From: Desulfobacterales bacterium
GTDB taxonomy: Bacteria; Desulfobacterota; Desulfobacteria; Desulfobacterales; SpSt-501
DNA length: 64,000 nt
Assembly: GCA_030834695.1 (NCBI GenBank)
Contig: JAUQXK010000140.1
Coordinates: 23,170 to 87,169 of the forward strand
Direction: 5' to 3'
In this document: one piece after another, positions 43 to 3,994 of the stretch
How the letters are laid out: every line of letters starts with the position of its first letter
Position numbering within the stretch: the first letter of the stretch is position 1
Made by a program: the position numbers and the translations under genes
Notes under the pieces: model-generated
What the model was told of the DNA's origin: nothing
Seen by the model: only the letters and a program-made list of their open reading frames with translations
Databases searched by the model: none

Positions 43-660
43 TCACCGCTCCAAAAGCGGTCTGAGGTCTTGCAGCCGATCGATGTGATGATCGGCCGAA
101 AGGGACGGGTTGCGGTAGGCCACGAACGGAACCTCCGCCGCATGGGCCGTGCTCGCATCCACTTCCGAATCCCCGACGAACAGGGCCTGATGCGGCTCGG
201 TGTTGAAGTGCGTCAGAATTTTCAAAAGCGGATCGGGCGCAGGCTTCGGCCGCTCGACATCGAGCGAGGTCACCACGTAATCGAAACGGTCGGACAGTCT
301 GAATTCCCGCAGAAGATGCTTCATCGTGTCGGTGCGATTGGTGGCGATGGCCGTACGGAATTTCCCGTGCATCCAATCCAGCAAACCGACCAGACCGGGC
401 TCTATCGTCAGGTGCTTGAGGAATCCGCCATAGTCGATCGTTTTGCGGAAGTCATAGGCCGCCTGCCGCAGACGGTCGTCTTCAAAAAGGGTCTCCAGCG
501 CCTGTTGAATGGTGTGGGCGTGCACGAAGCGCAGCTGCTCCTCGTTCATCGCCGGCCGGCCGAAGTGCTGAAGGATGTGGTTGTAATAATGCCGGTTGGC
601 TTCCAGCGTGTCGAACAGCACGCCGTCACAGTCAAACGCCACCACGCGCACGTTCATCAT
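43..660 (-). CDS. HAD-superfamily hydrolase (phosphoglycolate phosphatase-like)
   Basis: 205-aa ORF. It has an N-terminal DxDxV/T nucleophile motif (VAFDCDGVLFDT), a later TNR motif and a C-terminal GDSEVD motif, all typical of HAD phosphatases. Confidence 0.85.
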   Translation of the reverse strand: MMNVRVVAFDCDGVLFDTLEANRHYYNHILQHFGRPAMNEEQLRFVHAHTIQQALETLFEDDRLRQAAYDFRKTIDYGGFLKHLTIEPGLVGLLDWMHGKFRTAIATNRTDTMKHLLREFRLSDRFDYVVTSLDVERPKPAPDPLLKILTHFNTEPHQALFVGDSEVDASTAHAAEVPFVAYRNPSLSADHHIDRLQDLRPLLER

Positions 661-661
661 G

Positions 662-1420
662 TCAGTTGGCTTTCTTTTCGAAGGACGGCTGCGCCCGCAG
701 GTAGACGTAAACCCGCACGTCTATCTCCGGCTGGAGCGGGTGGTCGGTTTTCACCCGCACCGTGTCATTGTAGGAACCGGCTTCCGTTCTCAGATTCTCC
801 ACCCGCAGGGCGTAGGCCGGCTTGCCGCCCTGGACGACCGGTCCCAACTGCACCTTGAGCTTGCCGTCGACGGCATACGTTTCCAGAATCTTGAACGGGT
901 ATTTCTCCTCGGGCACGATGCTGACGGAGCCCTGCAGGGTCTCACCGGATACACCGCGCAGGCTCAGCATCCGGGGGGTGATCGTGGCGAAACGGTCCAC
1001 CGGTCCGGCGATCGTCAGATGCACCACCGGCTCTTTCGGATCGTTGGTCATAACGTCGGCGGACTTTTCCAGCTTGCGACCGCCGTAGCCGGTCGTATCC
1101 ACTTTGATGGTGATTTTTCCCTCGCCGCCGGCGGGGATCTGTCTCGCATAGGAGACCGCTGCGCACCCTCAGCCGGTGCGCACGTCGCTGATGACCAGCG
1201 GCGCCGAGCCCTTGTTCATCACGACGAAATCATGGATGACCTTGGCGCCTTCGATCACCGGCTGGAACTCGAACGTTTTCTCCGGAAAAAAAACGGAAGC
1301 GCCGGGCTCCGAACCGCCGACGCCTGGAGCGGCGGCCTGGGCATGAACCGCACCAGCTAAAACGGCAAGGGCCAGGAGGGTCAGGATGATCGCTCCCGCC
1401 GCCGGACGATGACACTGCAT
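662..1420 (-). CDS. Secreted DUF1573-family protein with in-frame TGA (candidate selenocysteine at codon 84)
   Basis: ORFs 1169..1420 and 662..1102 share one frame and are interrupted only by TGA at 1169..1171. The frame stays open across 1103..1168. There is an N-terminal signal peptide (LLALAVLAGAVHAQA). Read-through gives ...PLVISDVRTG-[TGA]-GCAAVSYARQIPAGGEGKITIKV..., which matches the DUF1573 hallmark (..SCGCT..iPG..g.I.v) with TGA at the first Cys. Confidence 0.6.
1141..1156 (-). promoter_or_regulatory. Candidate SECIS-like hairpin downstream of the in-frame UGA
   Basis: On the mRNA strand, GUCUC-CUAUGC-GAGAC (5-bp stem, 6-nt loop) begins 13 nt after the UGA. The spacing is compatible with bacterial SECIS elements. 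The stem is short and I did no formal folding. Confidence 0.3.
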
Positions 1421-1552
1421 TCGGAATGTCTCCCACGTTGAAGTTGGCTCGACAGAGCCCGATTGTTTGATCCGAGTCGAATTTAAAAGAAAATTTTAGG
1501 TCGCACCGCCGTCAAAGTCAAGCCGGGGCCGCTGCGCTTCAGAACGGTCCGC

Positions 1553-3994
1553 TCACATAAGGTACAACGGATCCACATCGATGACCAATTTCACCCGGTT
1601 CCGGGCAAAACCGTGCGGATAAACGGCCAGCAACCGATCCACAAACCGGTGCAGCGCGGCGGCCTGCAGCGATTTTACCAAAATCTGCCAGCGGTAGTGA
1701 CCGGCGATCCGCGCCAGCGGGGCTTCGATCGGTCCCAGCAGCTGAAGCGCTTGGACCCAGCCCGGATCGGCGGCCTGCAGCGCCCGGCATTGCGTGCCGA
1801 GCGCCTCCGCCTGCTCGCGGGTGAAACGCTCATGGCGCCCGGACAGGCGCAGTTGGATCATCCGGGTGACCGGAGGATAGCCGAGCGCCTTGCGGAACCC
1901 GATTTCCGGTTCATAAAACGCGTTGAAGTCCTGAGCGCAGGCGGCCCGTATGCTGAAGTGGCCGGGGTTGTAGGTTTGCAGAATCACCTGTCCGGGACGG
2001 TCGCCGCGGCCGGCCCGGCCGGCCACCTGGGACAAGAGCTGAAAGGTGCGTTCCCCGGACCGAAAGTCCGGGAAACTCAGGGACAGATCCGCGCAGATGA
2101 CTCCCACCAGCGTGATCCCCGGGAAGTCATGCCCCTGGGTCACCATCTGGGTCCCGATCAGGATGTCGGTCGTCTTCTCGCGCAGCCCCTTGAGCAGCCG
2201 GAGAATGTCCCCCCGGCGCCGAGTGGTGTCGCGGTCCATGCGCGCCACCCGGGCCGCGGGAAACAGGGCACGGATCGCCGCCTCCACCTTTTCGGTTCCC
2301 ATTCCCAGGCGCTTGATCTGCTTGGACCCGCAGGCGCTGCAGGCAGCGGAAGCCGGCAGGCTGAAGCCGCAATAATGGCAACGGTAGGCGTTCTCCGCCT
2401 GGTGCAGCGTGAGGGAAATATTGCAGTGCCGGCAGCGCAGGGCCTCTCCGCAAGCGGCGCAGACCGGAAAATTCGCATACCCGCGCCGATTAAGAAACAG
2501 CAGCGCCTGCTCGCCGCGATCGAGGGTTGCGGCGATGGCCCGGTTCAGCTCGGCGCTGACGAAGCGCCCCGGACCGCGCAGATCCCGGCACTGGCGCAGG
2601 TCCACCGTGCGGACCTCGGGCAGGGATCGCGCCTCCATCCGTTCCGGCAGCACCAGCTCGGTGTATTTTCCGGAGCGCACATTGTAATACGACTGCAGCG
2701 ACGGCGTGGCCGACCCCAACAGCGCAACGGCGCCGCTCTGCTGGGCCCGCACCACCGCCAGGTCCCGTGCGCTGTAGTGCAGGCCGCCCTCCTGTTTGTA
2801 GGAGGCATCGTGCTCTTCGTCGACAATGATGACGCCCAGGTCTGAAAACGGCGCGAACACCGCCGAGCGCACGCCGATGGCGATCCGCACCTCCCGTCGC
2901 AGAATCCGCGTCCACTGGTCGAAGCGCTCGCCCGCGGAGAGTCCGCTGTGAAGCACGGCGACATGCTCCCCGAATCGGGCGCGAAACCGTCGTTCGGTCT
3001 GCGTGATCAGTGCGATCTCCGGGACCAGCACCACCACCGACTGCCCGGAGGCCATCGCCTGCGACGCCACCCGCAGATAGACTTCGGTCTTGCCGCTGCC
3101 CGTGACCCCTTTCAGCAGAAATGTCCGGAACCCCTTTCCCAGTGCGGCGCAAACGGTGCTCACCACGGCGTCCTGATCGGCGGTCAGCACCGGGGCCGTA
3201 TCGGGAAGGATGGCCTCACCGAAGGGGTCGCGGTAGAGCCTGCGCGCGAAAGTCTCCAGGTGACCGGAGCGCTCCAATGCCCTCAGGTGGGGGCGGGCAT
3301 TGGGCGTCTGGGCCGCGAGGGCGCGCACCGGCAGCTCTCCGGCAGCGGCCACCGCGTCGAGCAGGGCCTGCTTTTTCGGCGACAACGAGCCGTCGACCGG
3401 AGCCATAGACGGCAGCCGCACCCAGCGCTCCTGCAGGGCCTTGGTTCCTCCCGCCCGCAGCGTTCGCGTGCGCAGGATGTAACCGCGGCGCTGCAGGGTA
3501 GCCAGCACCGCGCCCGGGATGGCCGGGATGGACAGGACGCGCAGGGGTTTTCGACTCAGAAGGCCGAGAACCCGAGCCTCGTCCGCCGCCAAACCGCCTT
3601 CCGTCAAGCAGTCGCGCCCCGCGTCCGTGATACGCCACGTGGATGATTCGGCAACGGTTAAACCGCCGGGCAGCGCGGTCTGGATCACGGCGCCCAGCGG
3701 ATGCTTGTAGTAGTCAGCCGCCCAACGGAAAAGAGGAATCATGGAGGCGGGAAAGAGCGGCGCGTCATCCATGACGTCCAGAATGGGTTTGATTTCTTTC
3801 CCCTCCGGTGGCGACGCCGGTCCGAGAACATAACCGGTGGCGCGCCGCCGGCCGAAGGAAACCAGCACCCGCATGCCCGCCGCCACGGCAGACGCCAAAA
3901 CTTCCGGGACTCCGTAGGTGTACGTCCCCGGGACGGACATGGCCATCGCCACTTCGATGGTTTTTCCAGCGGCCTCTGCCGTTGAGCCAATCAT
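1553..3994 (-). CDS. priA: Primosomal protein N' (replication restart helicase PriA)
   Basis: 813 aa. Walker A motif GVTGSGKTEVY, DEEHD helicase motif II, and a Cys-rich zinc-binding insert (CAACGEALRCRHCNISLTLH..YRCHYCG..CSACGS), all characteristic of PriA. Confidence 0.95.
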   Translation of the reverse strand: MIGSTAEAAGKTIEVAMAMSVPGTYTYGVPEVLASAVAAGMRVLVSFGRRRATGYVLGPASPPEGKEIKPILDVMDDAPLFPASMIPLFRWAADYYKHPLGAVIQTALPGGLTVAESSTWRITDAGRDCLTEGGLAADEARVLGLLSRKPLRVLSIPAIPGAVLATLQRRGYILRTRTLRAGGTKALQERWVRLPSMAPVDGSLSPKKQALLDAVAAAGELPVRALAAQTPNARPHLRALERSGHLETFARRLYRDPFGEAILPDTAPVLTADQDAVVSTVCAALGKGFRTFLLKGVTGSGKTEVYLRVASQAMASGQSVVVLVPEIALITQTERRFRARFGEHVAVLHSGLSAGERFDQWTRILRREVRIAIGVRSAVFAPFSDLGVIIVDEEHDASYKQEGGLHYSARDLAVVRAQQSGAVALLGSATPSLQSYYNVRSGKYTELVLPERMEARSLPEVRTVDLRQCRDLRGPGRFVSAELNRAIAATLDRGEQALLFLNRRGYANFPVCAACGEALRCRHCNISLTLHQAENAYRCHYCGFSLPASAACSACGSKQIKRLGMGTEKVEAAIRALFPAARVARMDRDTTRRRGDILRLLKGLREKTTDILIGTQMVTQGHDFPGITLVGVICADLSLSFPDFRSGERTFQLLSQVAGRAGRGDRPGQVILQTYNPGHFSIRAACAQDFNAFYEPEIGFRKALGYPPVTRMIQLRLSGRHERFTREQAEALGTQCRALQAADPGWVQALQLLGPIEAPLARIAGHYRWQILVKSLQAAALHRFVDRLLAVYPHGFARNRVKLVIDVDPLYLM

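What the first reader, a model, noticed from the sequence alone, without database searches (positions are those of the whole stretch)
662..1420. In-frame TGA at the first Cys of the DUF1573 CGC motif: candidate secreted selenoprotein
Two minus-strand ORFs (1169..1420 and 662..1102) share one reading frame. They are separated only by a TGA at 1169..1171, and the frame is open across 1103..1168.

Reading through gives a 252-residue protein with a signal peptide and the sequence FEFQPVIEGAKVIHDFVVMNKGSAPLVISDVRTG-[UGA]-GCAAVSYARQIPAGGEGKITIKVDTTGYGG. This aligns with the DUF1573 (PF07610) consensus as I remember it (..f.f.N.G...L.I..v..SCGCT.......i.PG..g.i.v.....). The UGA falls exactly where the first Cys of the CGC motif belongs. 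A stop at a conserved redox Cys is the classic Sec/Cys signature rather than a random nonsense mutation.

A small hairpin (GUCUC-CUAUGC-GAGAC) starts 13 nt downstream. I do not know of DUF1573 being an established selenoprotein family, so this may be a new Sec-containing family member.
Basis: partly seen in the sequence, partly recalled or inferred. Interest (0 to 1): 0.62.

Follow-up and report, generated by a model that had tools for sequence, protein, structure and literature searches.

The report
Known DUF1573/OS_HP2 selenoprotein gene, confirmed
The in-frame TGA is a genuine selenocysteine codon in an exported DUF1573 protein, but this family (OS_HP2, motif U-G-C) has been catalogued as a selenoprotein since 2007-2008 and has its own NCBI model, so the finding is correct but ordinary.

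Summary
One minus-strand frame (1420..662) is open except for a TGA at 1171..1169, in the context VRTG-U-GC.

With Cys standing in for Sec, the 252-aa read-through scores 146.5 bits (cutoff 100) against NCBIfam NF041425, "OS_HP2 family (seleno)protein". It scores 67 bits against Pfam DUF1573.

In 30 orthologues from other species of the same genus and order, 25 have TGA in the same column and 5 have Cys. Nearly all of these genes sit between priA and a HAD hydrolase gene.

The hairpin GUCUC-N6-GAGAC, 12 nt after the UGA, is kept in all Sec forms with compensatory changes. It is held by the rare Arg codon AGA/AGG and is lost in the Cys forms.

The genome has selA, selB, a canonical tRNA-Sec and two selD genes that are themselves selenoprotein genes.

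The novelty claim fails. Zhang & Gladyshev 2007 and 2008 and the 2022 and 2026 reviews already list OS_HP2 / DUF1573 (PF07610, UxC/UGC) as a predicted selenoprotein family.

One caveat: the genome also carries a selC*-selB*-cysS* (tRNA-ReC) system, reported to read SECIS-linked UGA as Cys. Some Cys insertion at this codon therefore cannot be excluded.

The biochemical role of the protein remains unknown.

The parts
662..1420 (-). OS_HP2 / DUF1573 selenoprotein gene (252 codons plus the TGA stop at 664..662)
   Evidence: single open frame with one internal TGA. NF041425 146.5 bits (cutoff 100). PF07610 67.1 bits.
1169..1171 (-). In-frame UGA = Sec84, first position of the U-G-C motif (Cys86 codon TGC at 1165..1163)
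   Evidence: same column is TGA in 25 and Cys in 5 of 30 orthologues.
1139..1158 (-). SECIS-type hairpin. Core stem GUCUC (1156..1152) / GAGAC (1145..1141), loop CUAUGC, with an outer C1158-G1139 pair across a G.A mismatch. The core stem begins 12 nt after the UGA.
   Evidence: 82.6% of cells paired against 28-45% when the partner is slid; compensatory changes GCCUU/AAGGC and GCCUC/GAGGC; mean dG -7.7 kcal/mol in Sec forms against -1.4 in Cys forms; Arg codon AGA/AGG in 23 of 24 Sec forms with Arg at this position against CGG/CGC in Cys forms.
1340..1420 (-). Predicted signal peptide (residues 1-27: MQCHRP + hydrophobic core + AVHA|Q). Inferred.
   Evidence: Sequence; low-confidence helix at 11-18, then a disordered linker 21-36 before the folded domains. 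No signal-peptide predictor was available.
1004..1288 (-). DUF1573 / OS_HP2 Ig-like beta-sandwich domain (residues 45-139). The U-G-C lies in the turn between strands 75-82 and 87-91.
   Evidence: pLDDT above 90 over most of the domain.
695..988 (-). Second Ig-like beta-sandwich domain (residues 145-242), no Pfam match
   Evidence: strands 145-242, pLDDT about 95; tandem Ig-like/ASH-type structural matches, including 2qsv.
1493..1521 (-). Promoter-like site TTGACT-17-TAAAAT in the priA-OS_HP2 spacer
   Evidence: 10 of 12 consensus matches. A consensus match only.
43..660 (-). HAD-family hydrolase gene. Its ATG lies 1 nt after the selenoprotein stop. Conserved downstream neighbour.
   Evidence: HAD_2, 112 bits; directly downstream in 28 of 30 orthologous loci.
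1553..3994 (-). priA (primosomal helicase), conserved upstream neighbour
   Evidence: PriA domains; present upstream in 26 of 30 orthologous loci.

Best explanation
This is an ordinary, intact member of the already described OS_HP2 / DUF1573 selenoprotein family.

How it most likely works:
- The mRNA is translated from ATG 1420.
- At UGA 1171..1169 the small hairpin that begins 12 nt downstream recruits SelB-GTP-Sec-tRNA(Sec), and selenocysteine is inserted as residue 84.
- Translation continues to the true stop at 664..662.
- The 252-aa product has an N-terminal signal peptide and is exported to the cell envelope.
- There it folds into two tandem Ig-like beta-sandwich domains. The U-G-C triad sits on an exposed beta-turn of the first domain.

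Shown here: the family membership, the Sec/Cys column, the Sec-linked hairpin and the machinery.

Inferred: export, and the chemistry of the U-G-C site. My best guess is a redox-active selenylsulfide (CxC-type) or a soft-metal/sulfur-binding site, possibly helped by the invariant His63. I hold that guess with low confidence.
For: Family membership:
- NF041425 'OS_HP2 family (seleno)protein' scores 146.5 bits against a cutoff of 100.
- All 39 aligned relatives match the same model.
- PF07610 scores 67 bits across the UGA.

Sec/Cys column:
- TGA is in the same column in 25 orthologues at 43-92% identity, and Cys (D/S-CGC) in 5.
- Orthology is supported by the conserved order priA - gene - HAD.

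Hairpin:
- It is conserved in the Sec forms with compensatory pairs.
- Sec forms use AGA or AGG for the Arg at this position in 23 of 24 cases. AGA is only 29 of 1347 Arg codons in the window's long ORFs.
- In the Cys forms the same VSYPRQ peptide is encoded without the hairpin.

Machinery in the same genome:
- selA 532 bits.
- selB, a 675-aa frame.
- tRNA-Sec 75 bits, anticodon UCA, G73.
- Two selD genes, each with its own in-frame TGA.

Code: the gene's own terminator is also TGA, so TGA is not generally reassigned.

Against: - There is no direct protein evidence (75Se labelling or mass spectrometry) for this gene. As far as the papers I read show, the family as a whole also rests on bioinformatic prediction.
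- The hairpin is short (5-7 bp) and has no conserved G in its apical loop, unlike the E. coli-type SECIS.
- No Rfam model matched the region.
- Its fold energy in a 66-nt context is not exceptional (z = -0.96).
- The 5 Cys forms represent only about two independent Sec-to-Cys or Cys-to-Sec events.
- The genome also has a tRNA-ReC/SelB*/CysS* system that could put Cys at this codon.
Confidence: 0.9

Rival explanations
1. The UGA is decoded, wholly or under selenium shortage, as cysteine. The genome's second system would do this: a tRNA-Sec-shaped tRNA with UCA anticodon and U73 (selC*/tRNA-ReC), charged by a CysRS paralogue and delivered by a SelB paralogue to SECIS-linked UGA codons. The protein would then exist as a Sec form and a Cys form.
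For: -: a second tRNA-Sec-like gene on contig C11, anticodon UCA, discriminator U, CCA encoded.
- directly downstream is a SelB-like factor (GTP_EFTU, Beta-barrel_SelB) that runs off the contig. Contig C36 starts with a SelB-wing_3 C-terminus followed by a CysRS gene (399 bits).
- the same tRNA, 96-100% identical, is in at least 8 other genomes of the genus. In one, on a 307-kb contig, it is followed contiguously by selB* and cysS*, so it is native and not contamination.
- PMC13582414, citing Vargas-Rodriguez et al. 2018, states that tRNA-ReC decodes UGA as Cys in the presence of a downstream SECIS, and that in such genomes UGA may be read as Cys.
Against: - The full Sec pathway is also present and intact, including Sec-containing SelD.
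- If Cys were the usual product, TGC would serve without the cost of recoding, and the UGA would not be kept in 25 species.
- Presence of tRNA-ReC does not track the Sec or Cys state of this gene.
- Which SECIS elements SelB* recognises is unknown.
Confidence: 0.25
2. The TGA is a real stop. The locus would then be a pseudogene, an assembly or sequencing error, or two separate small genes (an 83-aa N-terminal peptide and a 146-aa protein starting at GTG 1102).
For: - Automatic gene callers do split it: public protein collections hold mainly the 146-aa C-terminal fragment of the Sec forms.
- Reads could not be inspected.
Against: - The same TGA is in the same column in 25 species, with the frame kept on both sides.
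- One Pfam/NCBIfam domain spans the codon.
- Cys stands at that column in the remainder.
- The Sec-linked hairpin is conserved.
- A random nonsense mutation or sequencing error would not recur across genomes assembled independently.
Confidence: 0.02
3. TGA is reassigned genome-wide to a sense codon (Gly or Trp), as in some candidate phyla or Mollicutes.
For: None beyond the open frame.
Against: - The gene itself, and its neighbours, terminate at TGA or other stops as expected under table 11.
- The column alternates specifically with Cys.
- The relatives named in public records are Desulfobacterales/Thermodesulfobacteriota, which use the standard code (established knowledge).
Confidence: 0.01

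Closest known systems
OS_HP2 family (seleno)protein (NCBIfam NF041425), the same as the 'DUF1573 domain-containing protein' selenoprotein (PF07610, motif UxC/UGC). First predicted in deltaproteobacterial symbionts of Olavius algarvensis (Zhang & Gladyshev 2007, PMC1976440). Later found in the GOS selenoproteome (PMC2398784) and listed in the reviews PMC9312934 and PMC13188914.
   Same: - The domain, and a score well above the family cutoff.
- Sec at the first position of U-G-C.
- A stem-loop downstream of the UGA.
- The same broad lineage: sulfate-reducer-type Deltaproteobacteria, now Desulfobacterota.
- It is a member of this family.
   Different: Nothing of substance. This report adds detail not seen in the papers I read:
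- Conserved priA - gene - HAD synteny across the order.
- Cys-form orthologues (the 2007 table listed 0 Cys homologues).
- A comparative definition of the hairpin. OS_HP2 was the one new family not drawn in the 2007 SECIS figure, whose legend covers five of the six families.
Cys-containing DUF1573 proteins (PF07610; for example the Porphyromonas gingivalis protein of unknown function, PDB 2qsv)
   Same: Ig-like beta-sandwich fold, often in tandem; the conserved C-G-C turn; exported. 2qsv is among the structural matches.
   Different: They have Cys in place of Sec and so no SECIS. Sequence similarity to 2qsv is too low for phmmer. Their function is also unknown.
Cys-Sec (G-C-U) DUF1573-like proteins of Chloroflexota and others, noted by earlier agents of this scan
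   Same: The same fold family with an in-frame UGA in the Cys motif.
   Different: In those proteins Sec follows the Cys (C-U). They are reported as uncatalogued and as lying in copper gene clusters. Here the motif is the catalogued U-G-C, and the neighbours are priA and a HAD hydrolase, not copper genes.
tRNA-ReC / SelB* / CysS* recoding system (Vargas-Rodriguez et al. 2018, as described in PMC13582414)
   Same: The genome's second tRNA has the defining UCA anticodon and U73 discriminator. It is followed by a SelB paralogue and a CysRS paralogue.
   Different: It is not part of the finding's locus. It matters only as a possible alternative decoder of the same UGA.

Membership tests
OS_HP2 / DUF1573 selenoprotein family | Scores above the curated cutoff of NCBIfam NF041425 | tested here: met
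   146.5 bits against a cutoff of 100, residues 46-141 on profile 2-97/98; all 39 aligned relatives match.
OS_HP2 / DUF1573 selenoprotein family | Pfam PF07610 (DUF1573) domain | tested here: met
   67.1 bits against a cutoff of 26.1, residues 45-139.
OS_HP2 / DUF1573 selenoprotein family | In-frame UGA at the first position of the UxC (U-G-C) motif, aligned with Cys in homologues | tested here: met
   U-G-C in 25 orthologues and C-G-C in 5, all in the same column.
OS_HP2 / DUF1573 selenoprotein family | Bacterial SECIS-like stem-loop shortly downstream of the UGA | tested here: met
   a conserved hairpin 12 nt downstream, with covariation, specific to the Sec forms. It has no conserved apical-loop G, and no Rfam model matched.
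OS_HP2 / DUF1573 selenoprotein family | Host genome encodes selA, selB, selC and selD | tested here: met
OS_HP2 / DUF1573 selenoprotein family | Selenium actually incorporated (75Se labelling or mass spectrometry) | not testable with these tools
   No experimental data.
tRNA-ReC (selC*) Cys-recoding system (side observation) | tRNA of 80 nt or more with UCA or GCA anticodon and discriminator U (criteria as used in PMC13582414) | tested here: met
   92 nt, anticodon UCA, acceptor AGGGGCAA/UUGCCCCU followed by U, then CCA.
tRNA-ReC (selC*) Cys-recoding system (side observation) | Linked SelB paralogue and CysRS paralogue | tested here: met
   (own genome, split over contigs C11 and C36); contiguous on a 307-kb contig of a same-genus genome.
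tRNA-ReC (selC*) Cys-recoding system (side observation) | Inserts Cys at SECIS-linked UGA in this organism | not testable with these tools
   Needs mass spectrometry or a reporter assay.

The most novel reading that the evidence does not exclude
This UGA, like the genome's other selenoprotein UGAs, is decoded in two ways. It is read as Sec by SelB/tRNA-Sec when selenium is available, and as Cys by the native selC*-selB*-cysS* system when it is not. The cell would then make a Sec form or a Cys form of this conserved envelope protein from one gene. Because this gene has natural Cys-form orthologues in the same genus, it would be a convenient test case for what the ReC system does physiologically.
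Probability: 0.25. Interest if true: 0.45.

Novelty: already known. Interest (0 to 1): 0.15.

Why it matters
It matters little for discovery. The family, its Sec position and its Pfam link have been in the literature since 2007-2008, and NCBI has a naming model for it.

The practical value is for annotation. Public protein sets mostly carry only the truncated 146-aa fragment of these genes, so this gene should be annotated as one 252-aa selenoprotein.

Minor additions from this work:
- The Sec forms are positional orthologues across a whole order.
- The SECIS hairpin is now defined comparatively.
- Sec-to-Cys switches are accompanied by loss of the hairpin.

The coexistence of a tRNA-ReC system in the genus is a reminder that a UGA plus a SECIS does not prove Sec in these organisms.

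The biochemical function of DUF1573 and its U/C-G-C turn is still unknown.

Tried and rejected
- **Rfam:** the whole window at gathering thresholds gave nothing. The region 1000-1300 at E<=10 gave only a chance 11-nt snoRNA match and no SECIS model hit.
- **Single-sequence fold:** the 66 nt after the UGA fold no better than shuffles (z = -0.96). Only the comparative analysis made the hairpin convincing.
- **Second hairpin:** a stronger hairpin at about +34 to +55 nt (UCCCCGCC...GGCGAGGGA) was considered as the SECIS. It overlaps the P-A/P-G-G-E-G codons, forms in the Cys forms too (mean dG -8.1 against -11.7) and lies further from the UGA than usual. I treat it as mostly a by-product of coding, though it is not excluded as an accessory element.
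- **PDB sequence search:** no hit.
- **Fold search:** only generic tandem Ig/ASH-like matches and 2qsv, itself of unknown function, so no functional lead.
- **Gene neighbourhood:** priA, a HAD hydrolase, then a convergent PAS histidine kinase, MsrAB, SulP and Usp. None of these suggests a role, and there are no copper genes of the kind earlier notes reported for the C-U subfamily.
- **Contamination as the source of the second tRNA-Sec-like gene and SelB fragment:** rejected, because the same tRNA occurs on large contigs in same-genus genomes.
- **Vargas-Rodriguez 2018 paper:** the paper itself is not held. I cite it only through PMC13582414 and through reference lists.

Full report
**1. Observation**

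On the minus strand one frame runs from ATG 1420..1418 to the stop at 664..662. It is interrupted only by TGA 1171..1169, which is codon 84 of 252. The hairpin GUCUC (1156..1152) - CUAUGC - GAGAC (1145..1141) begins at the 13th nucleotide after the UGA.

**2. What the protein is**

I read the TGA as Sec, which the search programs receive as Cys.
- The product matches Pfam DUF1573 (PF07610): 67.1 bits, residues 45-139, matched straight through the UGA position.
- It matches NCBIfam NF041425, "OS_HP2 family (seleno)protein", at 146.5 bits against a curated cutoff of 100.
- All 39 relatives that I aligned match the same model.

An AlphaFold2 model built from that alignment has mean pLDDT 86.9. 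It shows:
- a low-confidence N-terminal helix and linker, consistent with a cleavable signal peptide (MQCHRP, a hydrophobic core, then AVHA|Q; this is inference);
- two Ig-like beta-sandwich domains (about residues 45-142 and 145-242);
- the U-G-C triad in the turn between strands 75-82 and 87-91.

Structure search returns only generic tandem Ig/ASH-type folds and 2qsv, a P. gingivalis protein of unknown function. Sequence search of the PDB finds nothing.

**3. Is the UGA a Sec codon?**

I searched 60 genomes of the same genus and order with stops read through.
- 55 of the 61 genomes searched (the window's own genome included) have a homologue.
- Most of the matches carry exactly one in-frame TGA.

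I then aligned the 30 best loci.
- The TGA is in the same column in 25 loci, at 43-92% identity to the query. The motif there is T-G/A/D-U-G-C.
- The other 5 loci have Cys there (D-C-G-C or S-C-G-C).

These are positional orthologues. The HAD hydrolase gene lies directly downstream in 28 of the 30 loci, and priA lies upstream in 26 (domain assignments).

The same genome encodes:
- selA, 532 bits;
- selB, a 675-aa frame;
- a canonical tRNA-Sec: 75 bits, UCA anticodon, G73, CCA;
- two selD genes, each with its own in-frame TGA.

The gene's own terminator is TGA, so the codon is not reassigned genome-wide.

**4. The SECIS element**

- In the 23 distinct Sec-form sequences, the 5-bp core stem is paired in essentially every sequence. 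An 8-pair version of the stem has 82.6% of cells paired, against 28-45% when the 3' partner is slid by 1-3 columns.
- There are compensatory changes: GCCUU/AAGGC in L037 and GCCUC/GAGGC in L041.
- The stem is held together by the Arg codon. 23 of the 24 Sec forms with Arg at this position use AGA or AGG. AGA accounts for only 29 of 1347 Arg codons in the long ORFs of this window.
- The Cys forms encode the same peptide (VSYPRQ) with CGG/CGC and GUU. They lose the hairpin: mean dG is -1.4 kcal/mol against -7.7 in the Sec forms.

Caveats:
- The hairpin is short and has no conserved G in the loop.
- It matches no Rfam model.
- It is unremarkable when folded alone.
- The Cys forms stem from only about two independent events.

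**5. Comparison with what is known**

OS_HP2 ("Olavius symbiont's hypothetical protein 2") was reported as a new selenoprotein family by Zhang & Gladyshev in 2007 (PMC1976440, Table 2). Their 2008 GOS paper lists it as "OS_HP2 pfam07610 UxC" (PMC2398784). [quoted passage not shown] The window's gene meets every sequence-level criterion of that family, as set out in the membership table.

Its suggestion of novelty is not. What this analysis adds is modest:
- order-wide synteny;
- Cys-form orthologues within the genus;
- a comparative description of the hairpin, since OS_HP2 was not among the five families drawn in the 2007 SECIS figure, judging from its legend.

Public protein collections mostly hold only the 146-aa C-terminal fragment of the Sec forms. 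The practical consequence is an annotation fix.

**6. A caveat found on the way**

The genome has a second tRNA-Sec-shaped gene (contig C11). It has a UCA anticodon but discriminator U73, followed by CCA.
- Directly downstream is a SelB-like elongation factor that runs off the contig.
- Contig C36 begins with a SelB winged-helix C-terminus, followed by a CysRS paralogue.
- The same tRNA, 96-100% identical, occurs in at least eight other genomes of the genus.
- In one of them, on a 307-kb contig, it is followed contiguously by the SelB paralogue and the CysRS paralogue. It is therefore native and not contamination.

This fits the selC*/tRNA-ReC system. According to PMC13582414, citing Vargas-Rodriguez et al. 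2018, that system decodes SECIS-linked UGA as Cys. That paper warns that in such genomes a UGA may be translated as Cys. I cannot exclude that some Cys is inserted at codon 84, for instance under selenium shortage. The intact Sec pathway and the retention of UGA in 25 species argue that Sec is the main product.

**7. Function**

The recoding mechanism is well supported. The biochemical role is not.

The neighbours give no lead. They are priA, a HAD hydrolase tightly linked downstream, then a convergent PAS histidine kinase, MsrAB, SulP and Usp. A promoter-like site in the priA-gene spacer suggests the gene has its own promoter.

My best guess is that the exposed U-G-C turn forms a redox-active selenylsulfide of the CxC type, or a binding site for a soft metal or sulfur species. 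Either could involve the invariant His63 on the neighbouring strand (invariant columns). This is inference, and I would give either variant no more than about one chance in three.

**8. Verdict**

This is a real selenoprotein gene that belongs to a family already catalogued. Confidence is 0.9, novelty is "already known", and interest is low (0.15). The most novel reading still open is dual Sec/Cys decoding of this codon by the two coexisting systems (probability about 0.25).

Noticed in passing
Own genome, outside the window: G000:C11:4806-4897 (L003 1502-1593) and downstream; G000:C36:1-1898 (L011): A selC*-selB*-cysS* (tRNA-ReC-type) system. It comprises a tRNA-Sec-shaped tRNA with UCA anticodon and U73, a SelB paralogue split over two small contigs, and a CysRS paralogue. 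It coexists with the canonical selABCD genes. It is conserved in at least 8 other genomes of the genus and is contiguous on a 307-kb contig of G019 (L062).
   Followed up: yes
Own genome: G000:C65:4743-5663 (L043) and G000:C5:32516-33436 (L044): Two selD (selenophosphate synthetase) genes, each with one in-frame TGA, so both are presumably Sec-containing SelD.
   Followed up: no
Relatives: for example G004:C58:5106-5798, G020:C30:225208-225864 and G021:C6:84825-85490: Many genomes of the genus carry a second, more distant OS_HP2 paralogue (about 40% identity) that also has an in-frame TGA. One (G004:C58) has two TGAs. The window's own genome has only the single copy.
   Followed up: no
Public protein collections: The Sec forms of this gene are represented almost only by the truncated 146-aa C-terminal ORF (GTG 1102 equivalent), labelled 'hypothetical protein' with no Pfam domain. 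Only the Cys forms are called full-length as DUF1573 proteins. This is a systematic mis-annotation.
   Followed up: partly
window 1286-1311 (-): A small hairpin followed by a run of eight T inside the coding region (codons ...SVFFPE...) is flagged as terminator-like by the consensus scan. The FFPE peptide is conserved in the orthologue consensus, so this is probably a coding coincidence.
   Followed up: no
L049 4151-5401 (-) = G000:C83, about 4 kb beyond the window's left edge: A fused MsrA-MsrB (PMSR + SelR domains) methionine sulfoxide reductase gene, next to a SulP transporter and a universal stress protein gene. No in-frame stop was seen in it.
   Followed up: no
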